From the IMG/VR virus record IMGVR_UViG_3300031998_000320: a stretch of DNA of 39,241 nt. One strand, 5' to 3'. Shown here piece after piece: positions 244-34,729 of the stretch. Below the pieces are notes generated by a model. It made no database searches, was not told the DNA's origin, and was given only the letters and a program-made list of their open reading frames with translations. The DNA is from a virus. Position numbers and translations under genes: made by a program. The first letter of the stretch is position 1. Every line of letters begins with the position of its first letter.

Positions 244-477
244 CTAACTACATTTAAAAAATTGTCTTAAATTTTCTTTTCGTATTTCTTTTTTAGCAAT
301 TTTTAATATTTTAGTTATGTCTTTTATACTCATACCAGCATTTATATTATTTGATAATTCGTGTATAAAATATATTTTGCCTGTTCTATATACTTCTATC
401 ATTCCTAATATACCTACATTTTTACGATAAATTTCTATTTCTATTGGGAAACCTTTTTCTATTATTCTATATTTCAT
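244..477 (-). CDS. Hypothetical protein (77 aa)
   Basis: Track ORF in the co-directional gene array. Its start overlaps the stop of the upstream gene by 4 nt (474..477). No motif recognised. Confidence 0.5.
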   Translation of the reverse strand: MKYRIIEKGFPIEIEIYRKNVGILGMIEVYRTGKIYFIHELSNNINAGMSIKDITKILKIAKKEIRKENLRQFFKCS

Positions 478-965
478 TCTTCATCACCACCTAATATCTT
501 TAATAATTTATCAAGATTTTGAACATCTCCATTATCATCACCAAATATGTATTCATAAAAAGGTTGTGGATTATTCATTGACGTTTTTATATATTCTATT
601 GCTTTATCTATTCTTGATTTGTAATTTTCTTTTTCTTTTGTCATATCTATTACTTTATTAGTTAATAATGTTACACCTTGTGTTAATCTTTTATTTTCTT
701 GTTCTAATAAATCTCTTTCTATTTGTGCTTTAGAGCCATAATCGGCTTTTAAATCTTGCACTTGTTGTTCTAGGTTTTTTATCTTATTTTCTAATTCAGC
801 GTTTTCACTTAATATAGCACTATATTGTTGTTCTATTGTTTCTAGTTTTGTTATGTAATCTAATATTAAACTCATTGTATATTTGCTTTCTATTACTTCC
901 CCTGTTTCTTTATCATCAATATACTTTCTTAAATTATCTAATATTTCTTTTATTTCTTTATTCAT
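474..965 (-). CDS. Hypothetical coiled-coil protein (163 aa)
   Basis: Track ORF with long E/K/L/Q-rich heptad-like stretches. Overlaps its neighbours by ATGA-type junctions. Confidence 0.55.
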   Translation of the reverse strand: MNKEIKEILDNLRKYIDDKETGEVIESKYTMSLILDYITKLETIEQQYSAILSENAELENKIKNLEQQVQDLKADYGSKAQIERDLLEQENKRLTQGVTLLTNKVIDMTKEKENYKSRIDKAIEYIKTSMNNPQPFYEYIFGDDNGDVQNLDKLLKILGGDEE

Positions 966-1105
966 TTTCTTTTCCTTTCTAATACTTTATATCCTTGTAT
1001 CATTTGTTTTTCTTGCTGTAATTGCTTTATTTCTTTCTTTGTTGCTTTTATTAGTTCACTTTTTAGATATAATAAGTAATCTATTTCTTTTTCTCTATCT
1101 TTCAT
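962..1105 (-). CDS. Small hypothetical coiled-coil ORF (47 aa, below track cutoff)
   Basis: Hand translation gives MKDREKEIDYLLYLKSELIKATKKEIKQLQQEKQMIQGYKVLERKRK. It fills the gap between two genes exactly, and its TGA overlaps the next ATG (ATGA). Confidence 0.35.
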   Translation of the reverse strand: MKDREKEIDYLLYLKSELIKATKKEIKQLQQEKQMIQGYKVLERKRK

Positions 1106-1106
1106 A

Positions 1107-1442
1107 TTACTCACCTACTTTATATTGCATACTTTCAAATTGTTCTTTTGTAACAATATTTTCTATATTTTTTTCATTATATCTTAATAATAAACCACAT
1201 ACTAATTCATTATTTTCTTTATGTAAAACAGGACACCCATTTACATAATCTCCAACTTCTATTAAATCTATTATGTTTGGACTTGATTTGATAACTTGAT
1301 TTATAGTACAACAATTTCTATAACAATCCATATTACAAATCATAATATCTTTATCTAAATTAATAACTTCTTTATTTTTTGTTTCAAAACTTTTTATTTT
1401 TGCTATACCACATTCAGTTCTTACATAATATCCTACATTCAT
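1107..1442 (-). CDS. Hypothetical protein, paralogue of 7999..8346
   Basis: Shares YVRT..GIAKI, IKSSPNIIDLIEVGDYVNG and VTKEQFESM.YKV blocks with the 115-aa ORF at 7999..8346. Nucleotide-level similarity is visible at about 1245..1300 versus about 8172..8228. Confidence 0.6.
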   Translation of the reverse strand: MNVGYYVRTECGIAKIKSFETKNKEVINLDKDIMICNMDCYRNCCTINQVIKSSPNIIDLIEVGDYVNGCPVLHKENNELVCGLLLRYNEKNIENIVTKEQFESMQYKVGE

Positions 1443-1444
1443 TA

Positions 1445-1675
1445 TTACTCACCTTTGCTTTCTAACTTTCTTCCACAAAATGGGCAATAATATATTTCTT
1501 TTTGAAATCTTACTTCCCAATAAGGACTAGGACATTTTTGTCTATCTATTTCCATTAAATATTTATTATTTTCTTCATCATAATGTAAATCTAAACAATA
1601 TAATGTATTTATTTCTCTAAATTTTATTGGCATAGAAGTATATCTTCCTTCTTCACACCATTCACATTTATTCAT
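1445..1675 (-). CDS. Small zinc-ribbon protein (76 aa)
   Basis: CEWC near the N-terminus and CPFC near the C-terminus (CxxC...CxxC). The last codons KGE carry the Shine-Dalgarno sequence of the next gene. Confidence 0.55.
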   Translation of the reverse strand: MNKCEWCEEGRYTSMPIKFREINTLYCLDLHYDEENNKYLMEIDRQKCPSPYWEVRFQKEIYYCPFCGRKLESKGE

Positions 1676-1676
1676 A

Positions 1677-1793
1677 TTATTCTCCTTTGCTTTCTAAATC
1701 TAACCATTTTTTAAATAGAATAAAACCTAATGGCATAAATATAAATGTTATTATCAAAAACATACTTATAACACCAAGAACTAAATTTTTCAT
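1677..1793 (-). CDS. Small membrane peptide (38 aa, below track cutoff)
   Basis: Hand translation gives MKNLVLGVISMFLIITFIFMPLGFILFKKWLDLESKGE, with one hydrophobic helix. It fills the gap between the methyltransferase and the zinc-ribbon gene. Confidence 0.35.
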   Translation of the reverse strand: MKNLVLGVISMFLIITFIFMPLGFILFKKWLDLESKGE

Positions 1794-1796
1794 ATT

Positions 1797-3332
1797 CTAT
1801 TCTCCTTTTCTTTCTAATAATTCATTTAATTTTGTTTTCCAATCTATTTCTAACAATTCTCCAAAAATAGCCATAAGAACATTGGTGCAAATTGAGTCTC
1901 CAAAACAGTGATAGGCACTTGAATCACTTTGATTAGATAATAATTTATCTATATCTTCATCTTTAACATTCATTAATCTTCCACATTCTTTTGGTGTTAA
2001 TTTTCTTATTCTTAAATCATTTATTACTTTTGGTATATTTCCACTACCTTCACTTGCTTTTAATGTTCTAGCACTACCATTTTCATCATAAACTTGTTGT
2101 TCAAATTGCCAACTTTTACCACTAATACCTTTTAATGGGTTTACTACTACTCCTAAATTATTTTGTGTAGTTAATGTTTGTATTTGTTCTTTTTGTACTC
2201 TACCTCTACGAGTTTCACTATTTGGTTGTGATAAATCTATACCATCTCCATCTGTTGCTTCTAAATATCCTTTTTTAGTAGCATTTTTTATTCTTAAATT
2301 AGTAGTTTTATCTAATTTATCACAGTACACTTTCATACTAGCATTTATTCCACCATCTTGACTTTCTGCAATTCTAGTTGTTATTGTTGGACTTATACTT
2401 TCATTTCCCATAACACTGTCTAATGGATTTTGATATGATTTCCAATTAGAAATTTGTAATAATGTTTTATCACTTAAATAATATTTTTCATCAACATTAT
2501 CTTCTAACATATCTTTTAATTTTAATTTAAGTGGTATTGGTTTAGGAAATGTATAACTATAATCACCTAATATGCTAATCATAAAACATCTATTTCTTGT
2601 TTGTGGGATTCCGTAATCGGTTGCTATTAAGTCTTGAAAGTAATTATTGTAGCCAAGCTCCTCTAATCTTAATTTCCATTTATTAAAATCCTCTAGATTA
2701 TCTTGGCTATGTACTTGTGGAACATTTTCCATTAAAAGTATTTGTGGTAGTGTTCCTAATTCGTGGCATTCAGTAAGTATTCTTTCTACTTCCCATAACA
2801 TACCAGAACGAGTAGATGTATCACTCATTCCTTTACCTTTACCAGCTAGTGATAAATCTTGACAAGGAAATGAGTAAGTCAATATATAATCATACTTGTC
2901 TTTATCTTTTATTTCTAAATCTTTACCTTTAACTTGTTGTATATTAACTAAATTATGTGTTGCACAAATGTTATTAAATATCGTTTTTCTTTGCAATTCA
3001 CTTAATCTCATTATTTGTTGTTTTGTCATTGGTTCATTATAATTACTTGATATACCTTTTTCATATAACCAACTTATTAACCATTCTTCTTTATTGCTAT
3101 ATGGTTGTTGTTCTAAATAATCAATATTATCATCAGTAAAATGTATATCTTTATATGCTTGAATACTTTTAACTGCCCATTCACATATTTTCCAATGTTC
3201 AAACTTAACTCCTAAATATTTTAAAGCAAGTGCTTGACTTCCGTAACCAGAAAACATTTCTATAAGTCTTATTGGTTTTGTTATTTTGTATTTAGGATAT
3301 AAGTAATCAAATATTGTCATTGTATCATTCAT
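1797..3332 (-). CDS. DNA (cytosine-5)-methyltransferase with an unusually long target-recognition region
   Basis: Motifs in canonical order: FSGYGSQ (I), FPCQDLS (IV), LMENVPQV (VI), QTRNR (VIII), RKLTPKECGRLM (IX), GDSICTNV (X). I start at MNDTMTIF (ATG 3330..3332, GAGG upstream, TAATG overlap) rather than the track start at 3350. Confidence 0.85.
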   Translation of the reverse strand: MNDTMTIFDYLYPKYKITKPIRLIEMFSGYGSQALALKYLGVKFEHWKICEWAVKSIQAYKDIHFTDDNIDYLEQQPYSNKEEWLISWLYEKGISSNYNEPMTKQQIMRLSELQRKTIFNNICATHNLVNIQQVKGKDLEIKDKDKYDYILTYSFPCQDLSLAGKGKGMSDTSTRSGMLWEVERILTECHELGTLPQILLMENVPQVHSQDNLEDFNKWKLRLEELGYNNYFQDLIATDYGIPQTRNRCFMISILGDYSYTFPKPIPLKLKLKDMLEDNVDEKYYLSDKTLLQISNWKSYQNPLDSVMGNESISPTITTRIAESQDGGINASMKVYCDKLDKTTNLRIKNATKKGYLEATDGDGIDLSQPNSETRRGRVQKEQIQTLTTQNNLGVVVNPLKGISGKSWQFEQQVYDENGSARTLKASEGSGNIPKVINDLRIRKLTPKECGRLMNVKDEDIDKLLSNQSDSSAYHCFGDSICTNVLMAIFGELLEIDWKTKLNELLERKGE

Positions 3333-11309: not shown

Positions 11310-11318
11310 ATTTTCCTC

Positions 11319-11480
11319 CTATTTATCTCTTTCACATTCGCATACTACTATCATTTCTCCATTGTTGATTTTTTCTATTCTGTTTAAATATAATATCGTG
11401 CCTATTATTACTACTGCAAATATTAATATTACATATAGTAATGTTTTTCCTTTTTCGTTTAATTTATAGTGTTTTTTCAT
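11319..11480 (-). CDS. Small membrane protein (53 aa, below track cutoff), first ORF of the early operon
   Basis: Hand translation gives MKKHYKLNEKGKTLLYVILIFAVVIIGTILYLNRIEKINNGEMIVVCECERDK. SD GGAGGT lies upstream of the ATG at 11478..11480. Confidence 0.45.
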   Translation of the reverse strand: MKKHYKLNEKGKTLLYVILIFAVVIIGTILYLNRIEKINNGEMIVVCECERDK

Positions 11481-11504
11481 TTCTTTTACCTCCTTACATA
11501 TATA

Positions 11505-11544
11505 ATAATACTATACATTTGTATAAAAGTCAATACATTTGTAT
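11505..11544 (-). promoter_or_regulatory. Early promoter with two palindromic operator-like sites
   Basis: Minus strand: -35 TTGACT (11528..11533), 17 bp, -10 TATTAT (11505..11510). ATACA-TT-TGTAT occurs at 11513..11524 (in the spacer) and 11533..11544 (over the -35), exactly 20 bp apart. Confidence 0.65.
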
Positions 11545-11549
11545 AAAAA

Positions 11550-11587
11550 AATTAAAAAAATAAAAAAGTGTAAAGTTACTTACACTT
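11550..11587 (-). terminator. Intrinsic terminator closing the late/lysis operon
   Basis: 8-bp stem AAGUGUAA/UUACACUU (11566..11573 with 11580..11587), 6-nt loop, then a long U-rich run on the minus strand (11550..11565). Confidence 0.7.
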
Positions 11588-11878
11588 TCTTTTTATTTTA
11601 TGCTTACTTTTTATATCAATTATTTCTTTCTTTAATTCCATACAAGACATTTGCTTAAGTTTTTTTGTTTTATATTCTTTTATATATTGTAGATATTCAT
11701 CTCTTGTTTTTATTGATTTGTATATTTCGTCCATATCTTGTTCTCTATCATAATGAATAATTAGAAATCTTGTTCCAAATCTTCCATGAAAATATGTACT
11801 CATTGTTGTTATTATATCATATTCATCTTCACTTTTATCTATTAATGTATGGACATCATAATCATATAACTTATACAT
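11576..11878 (-). CDS. Hypothetical protein (100 aa) downstream of the endolysin
   Basis: Track ORF and last gene before the terminator. No motif recognised. Confidence 0.5.
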   Translation of the reverse strand: MYKLYDYDVHTLIDKSEDEYDIITTMSTYFHGRFGTRFLIIHYDREQDMDEIYKSIKTRDEYLQYIKEYKTKKLKQMSCMELKKEIIDIKSKHKIKRKCK

Positions 11879-30152: not shown

Positions 30153-30531
30153 TTGTTATCATTCCTTTCTTTAATTCATCAATTTCTGCTTTTAACATTT
30201 CTATTTGCATATCTTTTGCATCTTTTGGTACTATTTCCGTTAATTCATAAGTTCTTATATTACCTCTTGTATCTTTAACCCATACAACACTCATATCTTT
30301 GCTAAAATATGGTGTATCACCTATTACTACATTTCTTTGTACTTCTTCTAATGAATTAGCATATCTTATAGCATCATGATTTGTAGGTGCTAATTGAAAG
30401 TTCTGTGTTATAGGTTGTTGTACTGGTTGTTGTTGATACTGTGCTTTTGCTTTTTCTAGTTCATTTATTTGTGCATTTATTCTGTCTAAACTTGCTTGTG
30501 GACTATAAATATTAAATGGACTATTATACAT
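30013..30531 (-). CDS. Hypothetical protein with a Gln-rich N-terminal region (172 aa)
   Basis: Track ORF with SD AAGGAG upstream. It contains QYQQQPVQQPITQNFQ, then a globular segment AIRYANSLEEVQRNVVIGDTPYFSKDMSVVWVKDTRGNIRTYELTEI. Confidence 0.55.
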   Translation of the reverse strand: MYNSPFNIYSPQASLDRINAQINELEKAKAQYQQQPVQQPITQNFQLAPTNHDAIRYANSLEEVQRNVVIGDTPYFSKDMSVVWVKDTRGNIRTYELTEIVPKDAKDMQIEMLKAEIDELKKGMITNEQPNTNVIQPENAINTTRDDETDGTTVEDEKSSSIQKISTSKKGK

Positions 30532-30642
30532 AAATTCATCTCCTTACAATAGAAAAAGAGGACACAGTATTATTACTTCTCAAATCGTGTTTTAAACAAC
30601 TCTAACAAGTTCTGTTTCCTCCTTTTCAATACCATTATCACA

Positions 30643-30674
30643 TAAAAAAAGAACCCAATTTTGTTGAGTTCTTC
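30643..30674 (-). terminator. Intrinsic terminator after the small HTH gene
   Basis: Stem AAGAAC/GUUCUU (30668..30673 with 30649..30654) plus one inner pair, followed by UUUUUUU on the minus strand. Confidence 0.55.
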
Positions 30675-30682
30675 TAAAAAAA

Positions 30683-30883
30683 TTATATAATTTTTCTAAT
30701 CTTTTTCTTTAATTTTTTAATCATTACATCTAGTGTTGATTCACTAACACCTAATTCCATAGCCATTTTAACACGACTATATCCTTTTATTTTGTATTCT
30801 AACAACTTTTGATATTCTTTATCTAGCATACATTGTTCAACAATATATTCATAATCTATTTTTGTAAAGTCAAAAAAATTCAT
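30683..30883 (-). CDS. Small sigma-70-region-4 / LuxR-like HTH protein (66 aa)
   Basis: EYKIKGYSRVKMAMELGVSESTLDVMIKKLKKKI resembles a stand-alone sigma region 4 type HTH. Confidence 0.5.
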   Translation of the reverse strand: MNFFDFTKIDYEYIVEQCMLDKEYQKLLEYKIKGYSRVKMAMELGVSESTLDVMIKKLKKKIRKII

Positions 30884-30954
30884 TATTTCCTTTTTGATCT
30901 ACGATATTTTCTTTTAACAGTCGTTTTGATATATCTTACTCTTTGTTTTGCCAT
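30883..30954 (-). CDS. Possible 23-aa highly basic peptide
   Basis: Hand translation gives MAKQRVRYIKTTVKRKYRRSKRK. GAGGTG lies 8 nt upstream, and the ORF has TAATG overlaps with both neighbours (30954 and 30883). Confidence 0.35.
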   Translation of the reverse strand: MAKQRVRYIKTTVKRKYRRSKRK

Positions 30955-31250
30955 TAGTTATTCACCTCATTACTCTTACCATTAATAAAATTGTTATTTC
31001 CATTATCACCTGAATCTTGAGTAACATCATAACTTTCAGTAGTAACTTCCTCATAGCCTATATCATTAAGAATATATACTAAATATACTATAGTAGCAAA
31101 CCACATTAAAAGCATAGTTAGAATAATAATAAATAGTCTTTTATTTGTTTTTTTATAATCTTTTAGCATTTCCATTGCTAAACTTTGTTCTCTTACTGCT
31201 TGAACTTCTTTTTTCATTTCTAAAACTTCCTCCTTCAAGCTCATAATCAA
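30954..31250 (-). CDS. Single-pass membrane protein (98 aa)
   Basis: Coiled-coil N-terminus, the TM helix RLFIIILTMLLMWFATIVYLVYIL, and a polar D/N/G-rich tail. Confidence 0.55.
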   Translation of the reverse strand: MIMSLKEEVLEMKKEVQAVREQSLAMEMLKDYKKTNKRLFIIILTMLLMWFATIVYLVYILNDIGYEEVTTESYDVTQDSGDNGNNNFINGKSNEVNN

Positions 31251-31513
31251 CTATCCTTTCGATGATACTCCCTTATATGATGTGCCATTGCTTCTTCTAT
31301 TTGAACTTTAATCTCTTTATCATAATCATCTAATTTGTCTAATATTCTTTGCACTTTTTTGTCTAGTTCATTTAATCTATAGTCAATTAATCCTATATTT
31401 TCTTCTTTTGCGTCTTTGACAGCTTTATCTTTTCTATTTACTACAAAATTAGCAACTGTCATTACTGCTGACAATATACTAATAGACAAAGCAACTGTTA
31501 GTTCCATAGACAT
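31247..31513 (-). CDS. N-terminally anchored membrane protein with a coiled coil (88 aa)
   Basis: TM helix LTVALSISILSAVMTVANFVV, then a K/D/E-rich helix. 4-nt overlap with the next gene. Confidence 0.55.
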   Translation of the reverse strand: MSMELTVALSISILSAVMTVANFVVNRKDKAVKDAKEENIGLIDYRLNELDKKVQRILDKLDDYDKEIKVQIEEAMAHHIREYHRKDS

Positions 31514-31541
31514 ACCTCCTATTTTTACTCTTACTAATTAA

Positions 31542-31570
31542 ATTATAACATAAAAAAAGAATAATACCAA
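31542..31570 (-). promoter_or_regulatory. Extended -10 promoter for the membrane-protein/HTH operon
   Basis: Minus strand: TTGGTA (31565..31570), 17 bp, TGTTATAAT (31542..31550). It is embedded in the preceding terminator. Confidence 0.55.
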
Positions 31571-31582
31571 ATAGCATTATTC
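31551..31582 (-). terminator. Intrinsic terminator after the 77-aa zinc-ribbon gene
   Basis: 7-bp stem GAAUAAU/AUUAUUC (31576..31582 with 31559..31565), 10-nt loop, then UUUUUUU. Confidence 0.55.
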
Positions 31583-31810
31583 CCATATAATATCACTAAC
31601 ACCAAGATTATCAAGCATATCATTATAGCAATTTTCACATAAACAACATAACTTCTTTTGTTGAAATTTATTGTTATTTCTTACATTAATTGTATAATCT
31701 GCATTTGCTTTACCACACTTTATACAATTACTACTTTTTCTGTCTGCTAATGATTTTAAATATGCTTGTAATTCTGCGTCATTCATACTCCTTATTTTGT
31801 TTAAATCCAC
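31577..31810 (-). CDS. Small zinc-ribbon protein (77 aa)
   Basis: CIKCGK....CCLCENC. GTG start with AGGAGG 8 nt upstream. Confidence 0.5.
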   Translation of the reverse strand: MDLNKIRSMNDAELQAYLKSLADRKSSNCIKCGKANADYTINVRNNNKFQQKKLCCLCENCYNDMLDNLGVSDIIWE

Positions 31811-31830
31811 ATTATCTACCTCCTAATATA

Positions 31831-31859
31831 ATAATACCACTTTTTACATATTTTATCAA
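31831..31859 (-). promoter_or_regulatory. Sigma-A promoter immediately after the RNA-unit terminator
   Basis: Minus strand: TTGATA (31854..31859), 17 bp, TGgTATTAT (-10 at 31831..31836). Confidence 0.6.
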
Positions 31860-31860
31860 T

Positions 31861-31885
31861 AAAAAAAGAACGATATTATCGTTCT
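31861..31885 (-). terminator. Strong intrinsic terminator ending the ORF-free unit
   Basis: Perfect palindrome AGAACGATA-T-TATCGTTCT (31867..31885), followed on the minus strand by a run of U (31861..31866). Confidence 0.8.
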
Positions 31886-32362
31886 TGCGTTTTAAGTGCT
31901 ATCTTATAAGCACTGTACTAATGATATAAAGGTTATAACTTAGCCATTTGTTGTGGAGTACAAGAATTACATAAGGAAGTTGGCTCTAACTATTAACACT
32001 TGTCATCCCTTTAACCACATCATCTTTTATATATCATCAGTACACTACCTATAAAAGATAAACCAAGCAACCCCTCCGCTATTGCTCGGACTTGATATAA
32101 CACAAATATATCTCCAAGTGCCTATTATAAGCACCATTGAATAGATATAGACAGTGGTGCAAGGATACCCTTGATAATCGTTTCCTTTAGTCTTAAATCG
32201 CTTCCCACACTAGAAGTTGTGTACTTAACTTCTTTACTTAAGACATTATTCACTAATCTGCAGTTCGTGAAATTATCAATGTACCGATTATATCTACTCA
32301 ATGCTACCTATAAAGGTAACACCAAAAATTTATAGCTTCCAATCCTCATAGAAGTAATTGGA
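31861..32362 (-). ncRNA. Candidate large structured non-coding RNA (about 0.5 kb), family unassigned
   Basis: No ORF of 60 aa or more in any frame, and composition is visibly less A+T-rich than the flanks. It has its own promoter and terminator and several clean hand-paired helices (see findings). Confidence 0.55.
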
Positions 32363-32369
32363 CAATTTA

Positions 32370-32398
32370 ATTATATCACTTTAATTTACTTTTGGCAA
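32370..32398 (-). promoter_or_regulatory. Extended -10 promoter of the ORF-free unit
   Basis: Minus strand: TTGCCA (32393..32398), 17 bp, TGaTATAAT (32370..32378). The 16-mer TGATATAATTAAATTG (32363..32378) is identical to 7604..7619. Confidence 0.55.
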
Positions 32399-32920
32399 CT
32401 TATCATCTGCATATTTCCATTTGTAGCCATAAGCATTAGATATTCTTCCTTTTGCACAAGCAATTATATTACTTCTATTAAAATTAAATTCTTTTTCAAT
32501 TTCAGTTATTGAATTATATTTCTTAATAAAATTATTGTTTTTATCGTATTGTTTAATTGATTTTATTATACCTAATCTTGCTTTTTGTGTTCTAGTTCCA
32601 TAGTTTATATTATATGTATGCTCACACCATTCTAAATTATCAACGCAGTTATTACTAGGATTTTCATCTTTATGGTTAATTTCATTATAATTATTAGGGT
32701 TAGGTAAAAATGTTATTGCCACTAATCTGTGTACTCTAAAATGATGTCTTCTACCATCTTTTGTAAATAAACACACCCTTTTATAATTATGATTACTTTC
32801 TTGTTTTAATATTTCTTCTTTATTATGATGTCTATATTTCATACTTTTTACTCTACCCAAATTAGACACCATGTATCTTCCTTCAAAATCAGGAATATCT
32901 TTCCACACTTCTTCTATCAT
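32381..32920 (-). CDS. HNH homing endonuclease (NUMOD4 / HNH_3 / C-terminal DNA-binding repeat)
   Basis: WKDIPDFEGRYMVSNLGRVKS, then HRLVAITFLPNPNNYNEINHKDENPSNNCVDNLEW, then a C-terminal NIIACAKGRISNAYGYKWKY. Start taken at MIEEVWKD (ATG 32918..32920, GGGAGGTG upstream). Confidence 0.85.
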   Translation of the reverse strand: MIEEVWKDIPDFEGRYMVSNLGRVKSMKYRHHNKEEILKQESNHNYKRVCLFTKDGRRHHFRVHRLVAITFLPNPNNYNEINHKDENPSNNCVDNLEWCEHTYNINYGTRTQKARLGIIKSIKQYDKNNNFIKKYNSITEIEKEFNFNRSNIIACAKGRISNAYGYKWKYADDKLPKVN

Positions 32921-32931
32921 ATATAACACCT

Positions 32932-32988
32932 CCCGAATAAGTGTTAGAGGAAGCAATTCGGGTACTTCCTCTATATATAATCATAACA
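32932..32988 (-). promoter_or_regulatory. Promoter plus structured leader (copy X) of the HNH gene
   Basis: TGTTATGAT at 32980..32988. Two interleaved helices: AGAGGAAG/CUUCCUCU (32965..32972 with 32946..32953) and CCCGAAU/AUUCGGG (32956..32962 with 32932..32938). The second abuts the SD. Confidence 0.6.
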
Positions 32989-32991
32989 TAT

Positions 32992-34227
32992 TTACTTCAT
33001 TTTAGCAATATTTACACGACGATAGCCACTAACTTTAGCACGTTCGATTTTACTTTTTAAACCACTTGCTTTCAATATATCCCTATATTTGCTTGTTAAT
33101 TGAGTTATTCTACTTTGCATTTCTCCAACTAATTCAGTGTTATTGCTAGAATAAGCAAGTATTTGAGTGTCTTTAGATTTTCTTAATTCTAATTCTACTT
33201 TACGAAGTAATTGTTCACCATCATATAAGCTATAATGTTTGCCTTCAAATTCAAAACCTTTATTATTGCTATCAATTATTTCTTTTAATTGCTTATCGCT
33301 ATATTCAGGTTCACTAACACCTAAAACAATGCTAAATATGTAGTGGTAACAGTTAAGCTCACTAATTGGACGATAACCATTTTTGTTATCGTGATCTAAC
33401 GTATAAGTATTGCCTTTATAATCTTTTGCTTCAAGTCCACTATTTAATCTATCGTATTCTGCTAGTGAAAATTGTCTACCTTGTACTTTTTCATGGTCTA
33501 TTGCTGGATTACTATGTACACTTATTTCATACCCATCACTATCAAATTCAGCACCTAATATTTTTTGGTTTTCATTATGTAATTCTCTTAATCTACCTTT
33601 TAAGTGCATTCTTATAGCACTATCTAATCTTATAGAACGTCCACTTTCATATTGAATAGTCTTTAAACCACTACCACCAATGTCTTTCATAATTCTACTC
33701 ATAGCACTATCGAATGTTTCTTTACCTTGCCCAACATTTAATAATGCCTCATCTAATACACGATTATAAGTTTCTCTTAACCCCATAAATTGAACTCGTC
33801 CATTTATATCACGAATAGTATAGCCTAATACATTTGCACGAGTAAAATTATACATTTCGTTCTTAACTATATTTGCAAGTGCCTCTGTTTGACGTTTTAA
33901 TGCCTCATTTTGCTCGTATTCTACAAAAGGTATATTTCTATACTGGTAGAACTTTTCATAGAATAATTGGTCTTTTTTAGCGTAATTAGAGAATATATCA
34001 TCAATATCTTTTATATTCAAATCTGTATATTTAGCAATTTCTCTTATAATATCTTCATAATTGCCACCATATTTCAAGATATTCACAAGTTGTTGTGCTT
34101 GACTTGGTGTTAATTCTCTTATTTTTTTAATAGAAGAACCCATTTTCATTAGAAAATAGGTGTTTGCTTCTTCTATTCTATTCAAAAGTCTTTCAACTAA
34201 CAACTCAATTTGTTCTTCACTTATCAT
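32992..34227 (-). CDS. Minor head protein (head morphogenesis, minor-capsid-2 / MuF-like position)
   Basis: 411 aa, encoded just downstream of the portal gene (separated only by the 162-aa HExxH ORF). The N-terminus EEQIELLVERLLNRIEEANTYFLMKMG is typical of this family. Confidence 0.65.
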   Translation of the reverse strand: MISEEQIELLVERLLNRIEEANTYFLMKMGSSIKKIRELTPSQAQQLVNILKYGGNYEDIIREIAKYTDLNIKDIDDIFSNYAKKDQLFYEKFYQYRNIPFVEYEQNEALKRQTEALANIVKNEMYNFTRANVLGYTIRDINGRVQFMGLRETYNRVLDEALLNVGQGKETFDSAMSRIMKDIGGSGLKTIQYESGRSIRLDSAIRMHLKGRLRELHNENQKILGAEFDSDGYEISVHSNPAIDHEKVQGRQFSLAEYDRLNSGLEAKDYKGNTYTLDHDNKNGYRPISELNCYHYIFSIVLGVSEPEYSDKQLKEIIDSNNKGFEFEGKHYSLYDGEQLLRKVELELRKSKDTQILAYSSNNTELVGEMQSRITQLTSKYRDILKASGLKSKIERAKVSGYRRVNIAKMK

Positions 34228-34240
34228 ATAGGATTACCTC

Positions 34241-34729
34241 CTATTCTATTTTTGATACTATTTGGTCGCCTATATTACCAACCATATAACAAAATAACTC
34301 TTCATTTATATCACATTCATCTGTGCCTTCTATTATATTGCCTACTTCATCTACTTTAGTAAATATATCTTGATATGGTTTTAATTTCCTACTAAAATAT
34401 CCAATTACTGCGTGTGTGCTTTCATGTGATATTGAACTCATATAATAATACTCTTTATTAAATATCATGTGTCCACATAAAGGACTTGTTTTTATATACT
34501 TTCCACTTTTAGCATCCAAATAATTTTTTGTATAACACCAAGTTCTTGCACCATAATCTTCTTCAACATATTGTTTTTCTAGTTTATTTTCTAATCTATA
34601 CATTTCTTCAAATGTATCACAAATATAAACATTCATATAATCTCTTAATCTATCTTTATATTTTATTTTTATTTCTTTAAATAATTGTTTAGGTAAATGT
34701 TTCCAAAAATATACTTTGAATTTTTGCAT
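34241..34729 (-). CDS. Putative zinc metallopeptidase (HExxH) of unknown role
   Basis: The only recognisable motif is ISHESTHAVIGYF (HExxH). It is located between the portal and minor head genes. Confidence 0.4.
   Translation of the reverse strand: MQKFKVYFWKHLPKQLFKEIKIKYKDRLRDYMNVYICDTFEEMYRLENKLEKQYVEEDYGARTWCYTKNYLDAKSGKYIKTSPLCGHMIFNKEYYYMSSISHESTHAVIGYFSRKLKPYQDIFTKVDEVGNIIEGTDECDINEELFCYMVGNIGDQIVSKIE

What the first reader, a model, noticed from the sequence alone, without database searches (positions are those of the whole stretch)
31861..32398. Self-contained ORF-free transcription unit of about 0.5 kb inside the head-gene cluster: candidate large structured RNA
31930..32380 has no ORF of 60 aa or more in any frame, which is exceptional in this tightly packed genome. 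It is also visibly less A+T-rich than its flanks (for example cccctccgc at 32071..32079).

On the minus strand it reads as a discrete gene. The promoter is -35 TTGCCA (32393..32398, inside the end of the HNH ORF), a 17-bp spacer, then an extended -10 TGaTATAAT (32370..32378). About 500 nt downstream lies a perfect palindromic hairpin (31867..31885) followed by a U-run.

Several clean helices can be paired by hand:
- GAAGUU/AACUUC (32227..32232 with 32213..32218)
- GCACCA/UGGUGC (32155..32160 with 32131..32136)
- CCGAGCAA/UUGCUUGG (32082..32089 with 32063..32070), closing an 11-nt loop UAGCGGAGGGG
- AUCUUUUAU/AUAAAAGAU (32051..32059 with 32022..32030)

Two hairpin modules are each present twice. 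GUGC-UUAUAA-n-GCAC occurs at 32118..32134 and 31896..31913. UACC-UUUAUA-GGUA occurs at 32303..32320, with a degenerate copy near 32043..32062.

Large ornate RNAs such as the ROOL and GOLLD classes are known to reside in phages and prophages of Firmicutes. This locus has the right size, context and architecture, but I cannot assign it to a family from the sequence alone. It may be new.
Basis: partly seen in the sequence, partly recalled or inferred. Interest (0 to 1): 0.85.

Follow-up and report, generated by a model that had tools for sequence, protein, structure and literature searches.

The report
Two stalk-enclosed small phage RNAs
The gene-free 0.5 kb is a real promoter-to-terminator RNA unit, but it is not one large ornate RNA: it holds two small RNAs, each clamped shut by the same conserved 25-base-pair stalk, which in hundreds of gut and rumen phage sequences encloses very different cargo (small RNAs, tRNAs, even a small protein gene).

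Summary
31930..32380 is the longest ORF-free stretch in the window, it is richer in G+C than its flanks, and it sits between the best sigma-70-like promoter in a 4-kb scan around it and an intrinsic terminator.

No Rfam family matches (ROOL, GOLLD, introns, tmRNA and RNase P included). The "duplicated hairpin modules" are the two strands of two long-range 25-bp helices ("stalks"), which close unit B (32125..32313) and unit A (31904..32054).

The same stalk closes 187 distinct units in uncultivated gut and rumen Bacillota phages and MAGs:
- It always carries a G/G mismatch at position 10 and conserved G-U wobbles.
- It has 580 G-U against 23 A-C pairs, so it folds as gene-sense RNA.
- Its interior is highly variable: structured small RNAs, tRNAs or tRNA-like domains, and an 84-aa ORF.

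Unit B's interior is itself a conserved structured RNA (12 members, 15 compensated pairs). Unit A's interior has no relatives.

Most likely the stalk defines and protects the ends of short phage transcripts and is an RNase III substrate. That step is inferred, not shown. I rate it a new variant of a known kind, with moderately high interest.

The parts
32370..32398 (-). Promoter: -35 TTGCCA (32398..32393), 17-nt spacer, extended -10 TGaTATAAT (32378..32370). It overlaps the last codons of the HNH ORF.
   Evidence: The consensus scan gives 11/12 matches plus TG, the best site in 30500..34500. The motif is conserved, with at most 5 mismatches, in L001, L002, L011, L013, L019, L022 and L025. Function as a promoter is inferred.
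32338..32362 (-). Short 5' leader hairpin (UCCAAU...AUUGGA) between the predicted start site and unit B.
   Evidence: Present in the MFE fold. The leader has only weak similarity in L001 and L114. Weak evidence.
32125..32313 (-). Unit B. The type-1 stalk has its 5' arm at 32289..32313 and its 3' arm at 32125..32149, with the G/G mismatch at 32304/32134. It encloses a 139-nt conserved structured interior (32150..32288).
   Evidence: The inverted repeat is found. The stalk census over 187 units is. The interior family has 12 members, 61 pairs and 15 compensated pairs. 98.5% of cells pair, and 0 of 500 shuffles reach the observed covariation.
32254..32266 (-). 13-nt loop GAACUGCAGAUUA of the unit B interior, closed by UCAC/GUGA. 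It carries a 6-nt palindrome that switches CUGCAG to CUCGAG among relatives.
   Evidence: Alignments. Self-pairing (kissing) is an inference from the palindrome being preserved.
32190..32244 (-). Unit B interior helices P4 (GUCUUAAGU 32244..32236 with AUUUAAGAC 32198..32190) and P5 (AGAAGUU 32233..32227 with AACUUCU 32218..32212).
   Evidence: P4 has 5 pairs with compensatory changes and P5 has 2.
32063..32089 (-). G+C-rich hairpin in the spacer between the units: CCGAGCAA, loop UAGCGGAGGGG, UUGCUUGG.
   Evidence: Present in the MFE fold. nhmmer finds no homologue of the spacer in any held locus, so conservation cannot be tested.
31904..32054 (-). Unit A. The type-2 stalk has its 5' arm at 32030..32054 and its 3' arm at 31904..31928, with the G/G mismatch at 32045/31913. 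It encloses a 101-nt orphan interior (31929..32029).
   Evidence: The inverted repeat is found. The stalk arms are 92 to 100% identical to type-2 arms in L004, L005, L015, L022 and L025. The interior has no relative and no excess folding stability (z = +0.72).
31860..31886 (-). Intrinsic terminator: 9-bp stem AAGAACGAU/AUCGUUCUU followed by a T-run.
   Evidence: Terminator scan: 3 sites found against 0.7 expected in 4 kb. Similar terminators lie 25 to 60 nt after units in L092, L102, L109, L044 and others.
32381..32956 (-). Neighbour: free-standing I-HmuI-like HNH homing endonuclease (NUMOD4, HNH_3, NUMOD1). It is inserted between the minor capsid gene and the RNA promoter. It is not part of the RNA unit.
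   Evidence: Pfam and PHROG matches. L022, L025 and L030 lack this gene and carry the same promoter and units directly after the capsid gene.

Best explanation
What it is (shown). On the minus strand, a conserved extended -10 promoter drives a non-coding transcript of about 500 nt that ends at an intrinsic terminator. The transcript carries two independent modules.

Each module is closed by a 25-position helix formed between its 5' and 3' ends. This 'stalk' has 24 pairs plus an invariant G/G mismatch at position 10, and conserved G-U wobbles at positions 6, 8 and 17. The stalk is a portable element. In uncultivated gut and rumen Bacillota phages it encloses interiors of about 22 to 300 nt that are mostly unrelated to each other.

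The interiors include:
- conserved structured small RNAs, such as the interior of the window's unit B;
- complete tRNAs and tRNA-like domains;
- an 84-aa protein gene.

How it most likely works (inferred). The stalk pairs the two ends of a short transcript. This defines and shields those ends against the 5' and 3' exonucleases of Bacillota. The stalk is also the kind of long-range duplex of 20 bp or more that RNase III cuts. It would therefore release the enclosed RNA from longer read-through or tRNA-array transcripts, as the processing stalks of rRNA and of B. subtilis scRNA precursors do.

The interior is the working part. Unit B's conserved multi-helix RNA, with its palindromic loop, probably acts in trans. 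Its target is unknown.
For: Folding strand:
- In 187 distinct units the stalk has 3814 Watson-Crick, 580 G-U and only 23 A-C pairs, so only the gene-sense strand folds. G/G at position 10 is kept in 184 of 187, and many positions show 2 to 4 pair types.
- L013 has a double compensatory swap, UUAAUGGUA with UGCUAUUAA.
- Stalks retrieved through the interior alone, so not biased by my stalk pattern, still pair at 97.9% with 7 compensated pairs.

RNA-gene behaviour:
- No unit lies inside an ORF of 80 aa or more. Flanking ORFs are co-oriented on both sides for 103 units and opposed on both sides for 11.
- Many arrays have an extended -10 promoter 40 to 130 nt upstream and a terminator 25 to 60 nt downstream.

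Link to stable-RNA processing:
- Units sit in or beside phage tRNA arrays, in several cases only 1 to 3 nt from a tRNA end (L133, L065, L034, L358; also L042, L066, L223, L259).
- A complete tRNA-Trp with CCA lies inside the stalk in L124.
- In L059 a tRNA-like RNA uses the top of the stalk as its acceptor stem. Both score above the Rfam tRNA threshold (48.7 and 44.5 bits).
- A strict T-arm motif occurs in 12 of 187 interiors against 0.2 expected, mostly abutting the 3' strand of the stalk.

Modularity:
- The 187 interiors fall into 144 similarity clusters.
- The same interior B sits in a type-1 stalk (window, L041), a type-2 stalk (L100) and a third variant (L272, L275, L276).

Enclosure of an mRNA:
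- An 84-aa ORF that belongs to a real family (86 clusters) is enclosed in L178 and L227.
- It is enclosed again in homologues at 69% and 57% identity. At 57% the stalk sequence has diverged.

Precedent: B. subtilis RNase III cuts long-range intramolecular duplexes, with U-G wobbles in the distal box (PMC11780869).
Against: - No cleavage, transcript-end or expression data exist for any member.
- Where tRNAs flank a unit at 1 to 3 nt, RNase P and the 3' tRNA-processing enzymes alone could release it with the stalk intact. RNase III is then not needed.
- The stalk is more conserved in sequence than a generic dsRNA substrate requires. Its arms are 96 to 100% identical between phages whose neighbouring capsid proteins share 66% identity. 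The G/G mismatch is invariant. Both facts point to a sequence-specific partner.
- Most interiors show no excess folding stability (mean z = -0.59). Unit A's interior has no relatives, so some 'cargo' may be filler.
- No target was found for either interior in the phage's own transcripts.
Confidence: 0.5

Rival explanations
1. The stalk is a sequence-specific handle for a dedicated protein, so each unit is an RNP scaffold. This would resemble the closing stem of Y RNA/YrlA that binds Ro60/Rsr, or the 5'/3' helix of phi29 pRNA. The interior would be the effector or adaptor domain, and the mature RNA would keep the stalk.
For: - Stalk sequence is conserved far above the neighbouring genes.
- The G/G mismatch is invariant and three wobbles are conserved.
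- A T arm abuts the stalk in several units, which is the YrlA-like layout of a long stem plus a tRNA-like domain (PMC4201824).
- tRNA-array spacing would release units with the stalk intact.
Against: - No protein gene is constantly next to units.
- No TROVE/Ro, RNA ligase or other RNA-binding enzyme is found among 57 window ORFs.
- YrlA genes lie next to rsr; these units do not.
- Stalks retrieved through the interior vary in sequence and length (25 to 27 positions) with compensation, so pairing matters more than sequence.
- A stalk of different sequence encloses the 84-aa ORF in L281.
Confidence: 0.2
2. The units are mobile DNA cassettes bounded by 25-bp terminal inverted repeats, comparable to Neisseria Correia repeat-enclosed elements or other MITEs. 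The RNA hairpin, and any RNase III cleavage of it, would be a by-product of transcription through the element.
For: - The ends are conserved while the interior is variable.
- There are several copies at different places in one phage (L015, L035, L064, L100, L130, L146).
- The same interior occurs with different stalk classes.
- Presence and number of units differ among orthologous loci (W, L013, L001, L022).
- Correia elements are inverted-repeat-enclosed and are bound or cut by RNase III (PMC2649163).
Against: - There is no target-site duplication at any offset or length; observed counts equal permuted controls.
- Units are strongly biased to the gene-sense orientation: 103 against 11.
- Differences between the arms are almost only G-U-compatible on one strand, 580 against 23. 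DNA repeats recognised by a transposase would not show this.
- No transposase or recombinase is linked to the units.
- Interior B is in the same orientation in all 12 members.
Confidence: 0.1
3. The region is a cis-acting leader. A constitutive promoter, a structured leader and a strong terminator would control read-through into the downstream head genes. This would resemble lambda PR'-qut-tR' or HK022 put RNAs, with the stalks acting on RNA polymerase or on terminator choice.
For: - The promoter, leader and terminator lie directly upstream of further late genes on the same strand.
- In L277 to L280 the units lie between a sigma-region-4-like regulator gene and terS, at the start of a late operon.
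- Units are most often found after the minor capsid/portal genes and before the scaffold/terS genes.
Against: - A second promoter (31859..31831) and an AGGAGG ribosome-binding site serve the next ORF independently.
- Units also occur inside tRNA arrays and around an ORF. A leader or antiterminator model does not explain these.
- A 24-bp perfect rod with a free interior does not resemble put or nut elements (my own knowledge of those families).
Confidence: 0.1
4. One reading: the whole 0.5 kb is one large ornate structured RNA of the ROOL/GOLLD type.
For: - The size, the phage context, the whole-transcript z-score of -5.4 and the raised G+C.
Against: - There is no Rfam match at gathering score or at E up to 10.
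- The locus breaks into two autonomous modules that occur separately elsewhere.
- Only the stalks and the unit B interior are conserved. The spacer and the unit A interior have no relatives.
- There is no long-range pairing between the two units in the MFE or centroid fold, apart from a short outermost helix.
Confidence: 0.03
5. The region is a decayed or very small protein-coding gene, for example the 58-aa ORF at 32125..32301.
For: - A 58-aa ORF spans unit B. The 3' arm of the stalk reads ...ISIQWCL* in one frame.
Against: - The 58-aa ORF has no PHROG match.
- The window differs from the other interior-B members by a 1-nt indel in the middle of that ORF.
- Variation among the 12 members is concentrated in compensated helix positions.
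- The type-1 5' arm, which closes unit B, carries stop codons in all three frames (read directly from the sequence).
Confidence: 0.02

Closest known systems
RNase III processing stalks of bacterial rRNA and of the B. subtilis scRNA precursor; long-range RNase III duplexes in B. subtilis mRNAs (PMC11780869, PMC1935012)
   Same: A duplex of 20 bp or more forms between sequences flanking the 5' and 3' ends of an enclosed RNA. The partners are tens to hundreds of nt apart, and G-U wobbles are tolerated or preferred.
   Different: Here one nearly fixed stalk sequence is reused around unrelated cargo in many phages. It carries an invariant G/G mismatch and also encloses tRNAs and an ORF. Cleavage has not been shown.
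RNase III sites of phage T7 and of B. subtilis phage SP82 early mRNAs (from my own knowledge; SP82 is named as a term in the papers)
   Same: They are phage-encoded, lie between genes, are sense-oriented, are similar in sequence within a phage, and define and stabilise transcript ends.
   Different: Those sites are local hairpins between genes and do not enclose a cargo. The family here is shared across many distantly related phages.
Neisseria Correia repeat-enclosed elements (PMC2649163)
   Same: They have terminal inverted repeats of about 26 bp around a short interior. When transcribed they form a hairpin that RNase III binds or cuts, and they occur in many copies.
   Different: Correia elements are MITEs. 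From my own knowledge, they have a TA target duplication, a conserved core and no transcriptional orientation. Here there is no target duplication, strong sense-strand bias, one-strand G-U asymmetry and an unrelated interior in most copies.
Bacterial Y RNAs (YrlA) (PMC4201824)
   Same: A long stem is formed by the 5' and 3' ends, with an internal tRNA-like domain in a subset of units (L059, L077, L094, L095 and others). YrlA also occurs in phages.
   Different: No Ro60/Rsr gene is nearby or in the window. Most interiors, including both in this window, are not tRNA-like. Whether the stalk resembles the Ro-binding helix was not tested.
Large ornate RNAs ROOL and GOLLD (Rfam)
   Same: Phage or prophage context in Bacillota, non-coding, several hundred nt.
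   Different: There is no match to either model. The architecture is two simple rods with free interiors, not a single multi-domain fold.

Membership tests
ROOL / GOLLD / any Rfam 15 family (including group I and II introns, RNase P, tmRNA, pRNA, 6S, Y RNA) | Match to the family covariance model at the gathering score. | tested here: not met
   There are 0 matches over the whole window. At E up to 10 over 31700..32500 there are only three chance hits of 12.8 to 16.9 bits, against thresholds of 50 to 87.
Group I intron carrying the HNH ORF | A catalytic core is detectable and a host gene is interrupted. | tested here: not met
   There is no intron model hit. The upstream minor capsid gene is complete (Pfam positions 2-365 of 366). 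Relatives without the HNH gene have the same promoter and units right after the capsid gene. The next ORF has its own ribosome-binding site and promoter.
tRNA / tmRNA | Cloverleaf detected by ARAGORN or the Rfam tRNA model. | tested here: not met
   None is found in the window. This feature is met in other members of the stalk family: L124 at 48.7 bits and L059 at 44.5 bits.
YrlA / bacterial Y RNA | Encoded next to a Ro60/Rsr (TROVE) gene. | tested here: not met
   There is no TROVE family among 57 window ORFs. It is also not among the commonest neighbour clusters of 130 loci.
YrlA / bacterial Y RNA | A closing stem formed by the 5' and 3' ends plus a tRNA-like T and D arm domain. | tested here: inconclusive
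   The closing stem is present. A T-arm motif is found in 12 of 187 interiors, but in neither interior of this window.
RNase III processing stalk | A duplex of 20 bp or more formed by sequences flanking the enclosed RNA. | tested here: met
   24 of 25 positions pair in both units of the window. The helix is conserved with covariation in 187 units and in the interior-B alignment.
RNase III processing stalk | Staggered cleavage by RNase III that leaves 2-nt 3' overhangs. | not testable with these tools
   No transcript-end data or enzyme assay is available.
MITE / Correia-like inverted-repeat element | Target-site duplication flanking the terminal repeats. | tested here: not met
   For k = 2 to 8 at 49 offset combinations, observed counts are within permuted controls.
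MITE / Correia-like inverted-repeat element | Insertion without regard to the direction of transcription, with repeats read as DNA. | tested here: not met
   103 co-oriented against 11 opposed. 580 G-U against 23 A-C pairs.
Sigma-70 promoter and intrinsic terminator bounding an independent RNA gene | Consensus -35 and extended -10 upstream, and a G+C hairpin with a T-run downstream. | tested here: met
   for the window. for relatives. Activity itself was not tested.

The most novel reading that the evidence does not exclude
The stalk is the address label of an RNA-level cassette system in gut and rumen phages. A dedicated factor would recognise the G/G-marked duplex and license whatever lies inside it (tRNA, small RNA or mRNA) for a common fate beyond trimming. 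That fate could be circularisation, loading into a particle or complex, or exchange of cassettes between co-infecting phages through the shared arms. This would be a phage counterpart of integron-like modularity, acting on or through RNA.
Probability: 0.12. Interest if true: 0.85.

Novelty: new variant of a known kind. Interest (0 to 1): 0.62.

Why it matters
If the reading is right, many uncultivated phages of gut and rumen Bacillota share a reusable RNA module. It is a fixed 25-bp closing duplex into which very different genes for small RNAs, tRNAs and even a small protein are placed.

- It would be a natural RNA expression scaffold, with obvious use in RNA engineering for Gram-positive hosts.
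- It would be a handle for finding phage small RNAs that evolve too fast to detect by sequence: search for the stalk and read the interior.
- It gives a concrete, testable substrate family for RNase III or another dsRNA-recognising factor in phage gene expression.
- The unit B interior is in addition a new, well-supported structured RNA family of unknown function.

Tried and rejected
- Rfam at gathering score and at E up to 10: nothing.
- GenBank/INPHARED phages: no match for the locus, for the 7-kb neighbourhood, or for a consensus unit at E up to 10.
- Literature string searches for the arm sequences: only chance hits.
- Stop-codon recoding: all three stop codons occur in all three minus-strand frames of the region.
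- Group I intron carrying the HNH gene: rejected (see the membership tests).
- Constant protein partner: none among the neighbour clusters or among the window ORFs.
- MITE: no target duplication.
- Inverton: no recombinase, and interior B has the same orientation in all 12 members.
- Host sequence mimicry: pattern hits in genomes that lack a partner arm are chance matches in unrelated taxa.
- Antisense targets of the two interiors in the phage's own transcripts: longest matches of 11 and 12 nt, within the shuffled distribution.
- Relatives of the unit A interior: none by nhmmer in any held locus, and none from two IMG/VR k-mer scans.
- Extension of the stalk into the flanks: one extra pair at 74%, then chance level in a fixed register.
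- Fixed order of stalk classes in arrays: none. Order 12 occurs 16 times, 11 ten times, 21 seven times and 22 twice.
- The supplements of the 10,006 viral csRNA catalogue (PMC10690425) are not held. I could not check whether the motif is listed there.
Full report
**1. The observation**

The window is a low-G+C (27%) siphovirus-type genome with essentially all genes on the minus strand. On that strand the order is:
- terS and terL;
- portal;
- a 162-aa ORF;
- minor capsid protein 2 (32992..34227);
- an I-HmuI-like HNH endonuclease (32381..32956);
- the gap studied here;
- small ORFs, scaffold-like and capsid genes.

31930..32380 is the longest stretch of the window without an ORF of 60 aa or more in any frame: 451 nt, against 266 nt for the next. 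Its G+C is 0.34, against 0.26 in the flanks.

The hairpin with a T-run at 31886..31866 is one of three terminator-like sites, where 0.7 are expected. The 505-nt transcript folds at -145 kcal/mol, z = -5.4.

**2. Anatomy**

The 'hairpin modules present twice' are the arms of two long-range inverted repeats:
- 32289..32313 with 32125..32149, 139 nt apart (unit B);
- 32030..32054 with 31904..31928, 101 nt apart (unit A).

On the minus strand each pair forms 24 pairs out of 25 positions when G-U is allowed. The one mismatch is a G/G at position 10.

The two units are paralogous. The outer 10 positions and the top of the helix are alike. Positions 11 to 16 and 18 to 19 differ on both strands in a compensated way: type 1 is CAUUGAGUAG and type 2 is UGUACUGAUG.

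I saw no support for them in relatives.

**3. Relatives**

Nothing in Rfam 15 matches, at gathering score or at E up to 10. GenBank phages have no match.

Thirty-two IMG/VR loci encode relatives of the minor capsid protein at 56 to 92% identity. Many carry the same promoter and the same stalk arms immediately after that gene.
- L022, L025 and L030 lack the HNH gene, so the endonuclease in the window is an insertion.
- In L022 the two stalks are 96 to 100% identical to those of the window, yet the interiors cannot be aligned.

Among 120 genome stretches it found about 45 with a matching 3' arm. All of these are in gut or rumen MAGs labelled Bacilli, 'Tenericutes', Erysipelotrichaceae or Clostridia. 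Hits without a partner arm are chance matches.

In all I collected 187 distinct units. Within 250 nt they stand alone or in arrays of up to 4. The full range of unit length is 72 to 376 nt, with a median near 120 nt.

**4. The stalk is an RNA helix**

Over 187 units and 25 positions there are 3814 Watson-Crick pairs, 580 G-U pairs and 23 A-C pairs. Of the 258 other cells, 184 are the G/G at position 10. A-C is what G-U would become on the opposite strand, so only the gene-sense strand folds.

Positions 11 to 19 show two to four Watson-Crick pair types each.
- L013, an orthologue of unit B, has UUAAUGGUA with UGCUAUUAA in place of UUAUAGGUA with UGCUUAUAA.
- My pattern fixed much of the 5' arm, so I also retrieved units through their interior (see section 6). 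Those stalks vary more (UUAUGGAUAG, UUGUGAGCAG, UUAUAAGUAG; 25 to 27 positions). They still pair in 97.9% of cells, with seven compensated pairs.

No unit lies inside an ORF of 80 aa or more. Flanking ORFs are co-oriented on both sides for 103 units and opposed on both sides for 11. Many arrays have an extended -10 promoter 40 to 130 nt upstream and an intrinsic terminator 25 to 60 nt downstream. No target-site duplication flanks the units.

**5. What the stalk encloses**

The 187 interiors fall into 144 similarity clusters. On average they fold barely better than shuffles (mean z = -0.59). The window's two interiors score -0.09 and +0.72.

Some interiors are clearly genes:
- L124 holds a complete tRNA-Trp with CCA (Rfam tRNA, 48.7 bits).
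- L059 holds a tRNA-like RNA (44.5 bits) whose acceptor stem is the top of the stalk.
- A strict T-arm motif occurs in 12 interiors against 0.2 expected, mostly abutting the 3' strand of the stalk.
- In L178 and L227 a type-2 stalk encloses an 84-aa ORF that belongs to a real protein family of 86 clusters. Homologues at 69% identity (L277 to L280) and 57% identity (L281) are again enclosed by a 5'/3' duplex of 19 out of 20 pairs. In L281 the stalk sequence has diverged. A homologue at 47% identity has no stalk.

Units also sit in or next to phage tRNA arrays, in several cases 1 to 3 nt from a tRNA end (L133, L065, L034, L358; also L042, L066, L067, L223, L259).

The commonest protein neighbours are the minor capsid/portal genes upstream and the scaffold/terS genes downstream. 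No protein is a constant partner.

**6. Unit B of the window is a conserved structured RNA**

Its 139-nt interior has relatives in IMG/VR and in metagenomes, 12 distinct members in all. RNAalifold predicts 61 pairs, 15 of them with compensatory changes.

For that structure:
- 98.5% of cells pair.
- None of 500 column shuffles reaches the observed covariation.
- Sliding the partners drops pairing to 35 to 46%.

P4 (GUCUU with AAGAC) occurs in four fully compensated versions.

A 13-nt loop carries a palindrome that switches from CUGCAG to CUCGAG. This suggests loop-loop self-pairing, which is an inference.

The same interior sits in a type-1 stalk (window, L041), a type-2 stalk (L100) and a third variant (L272, L275, L276). 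Stalk and interior are therefore separable modules.

A 1-nt indel between the window and its relatives lies inside the 58-aa ORF that spans unit B. Together with the absence of any PHROG match, this argues against coding.

Unit A's interior and the spacer hairpin have no relatives. Neither interior has above-chance complementarity to the phage's own transcripts.

**7. Mechanism**

Shown: this is a family of RNA helices that close short transcripts of very different content.

Inferred: the stalk pairs the two ends of a transcript. This defines and shields the ends and offers a long-range duplex of 20 bp or more for RNase III. The processing stalks of rRNA and of the B. subtilis scRNA precursor work this way. 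So do the long-range RNase III duplexes recently mapped in B. subtilis mRNAs, where U-G wobbles are enriched in the distal box (PMC11780869).

This one idea accounts for the enclosure of small RNAs, tRNAs and an mRNA, for the sense orientation, and for membership of tRNA arrays.

It does not explain two things: why the stalk sequence and the G/G mismatch are so well kept, and why tRNA-flanked units would need RNase III at all.

The main rival is therefore a sequence-specific protein handle (an RNP scaffold, like Y RNA). A mobile inverted-repeat cassette of the Correia kind (PMC2649163) is disfavoured by the one-strand G-U asymmetry, the orientation bias and the lack of target duplications. A cis leader or antitermination role is disfavoured by the tRNA-array and ORF-enclosing cases.

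**8. Verdict**

The finding is real and non-coding, but it is not a ROOL/GOLLD-like giant. It is a two-unit array of a widespread modular family of 'stalk-enclosed' phage RNAs. The family is absent from Rfam 15 and from cultured phages.

It may be listed without characterisation in the catalogue of 10,006 viral candidate RNAs (PMC10690425). I could not check this because the supplements are not held.

Confidence is about 0.85 in the structural description and about 0.4 to 0.5 in the processing and protection mechanism.

Noticed in passing
window 32381..32956 (minus strand), compared with L022 6185..6230: The HNH homing endonuclease is an insertion. Its last codons (KLPKVN*) and the -35 box correspond to the end of the minor capsid gene (ELQNLN*) and the same -35 box in L022, which lacks the HNH gene. 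The endonuclease gene therefore landed in, or borrowed, the 3' end of the capsid gene without disturbing the RNA promoter.
   Followed up: partly
L178 about 247..589 (minus strand), L227, L277-L281 about 1440..1800: The same kind of stalk encloses a conserved 84-aa protein gene of unknown function (86 clusters). The enclosure is kept at 69% and 57% protein identity, with a diverged stalk sequence at 57%. In L178 the enclosed gene follows a tRNA array.
   Followed up: partly
L124 1682..1818; L059 8919..9045: In L124 a complete tRNA-Trp(CCA) lies inside a stalk. In L059 a tRNA-like RNA with a long variable arm uses the top 7 bp of the stalk as its acceptor stem and has no encoded CCA.
   Followed up: partly
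window 32254..32266 (minus strand): The conserved 13-nt loop of the unit B interior carries a 6-nt palindrome that changes from CUGCAG to CUCGAG among relatives and stays palindromic. This would fit a kissing-loop dimerisation site.
   Followed up: partly
window 31831..31859 and 31577..31810 (minus strand): Right after the terminator lies a second extended -10 promoter (TTGATA, 17 nt, TATTAT) and an AGGAGG ribosome-binding site. They serve a GTG-start 77-aa ORF with a CxxC...CxxC pattern and no confident family match.
   Followed up: no
window 30683..30883; L277-L280 about 780..1190: A 66-aa sigma-region-4/LuxR-like protein lies about 1 kb downstream of the RNA unit in the window. In L277, L278 and L280 a 135-aa protein, with a weak Sigma70_r4 hit in L277 and L278, lies directly upstream of the units and terS. 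This hints that units mark the start of late operons.
   Followed up: no
window, several ORFs outside the finding: Besides 32381..32956, PHROG scans of the other 57 ORFs hit several HNH endonuclease families (phrog_374, 3377, 2081 and 953, two members each, plus phrog_59 and 959). The genome therefore carries several homing-endonuclease-like genes.
   Followed up: no
window 11310..11575: This is the second longest ORF-free stretch (266 nt). It has a 21-nt A/T-rich palindrome at 11553..11600 that looks like a bidirectional terminator. It was not examined further.
   Followed up: no
5' arms of stalks, e.g. window 32289..32313: The type-1 5' arm (UUAUAGGUAGCAUUGAGUAG) has a UAG stop codon in each of the three reading frames. 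Any ribosome reading in from upstream would stop before the stalk. This may be incidental.
   Followed up: no
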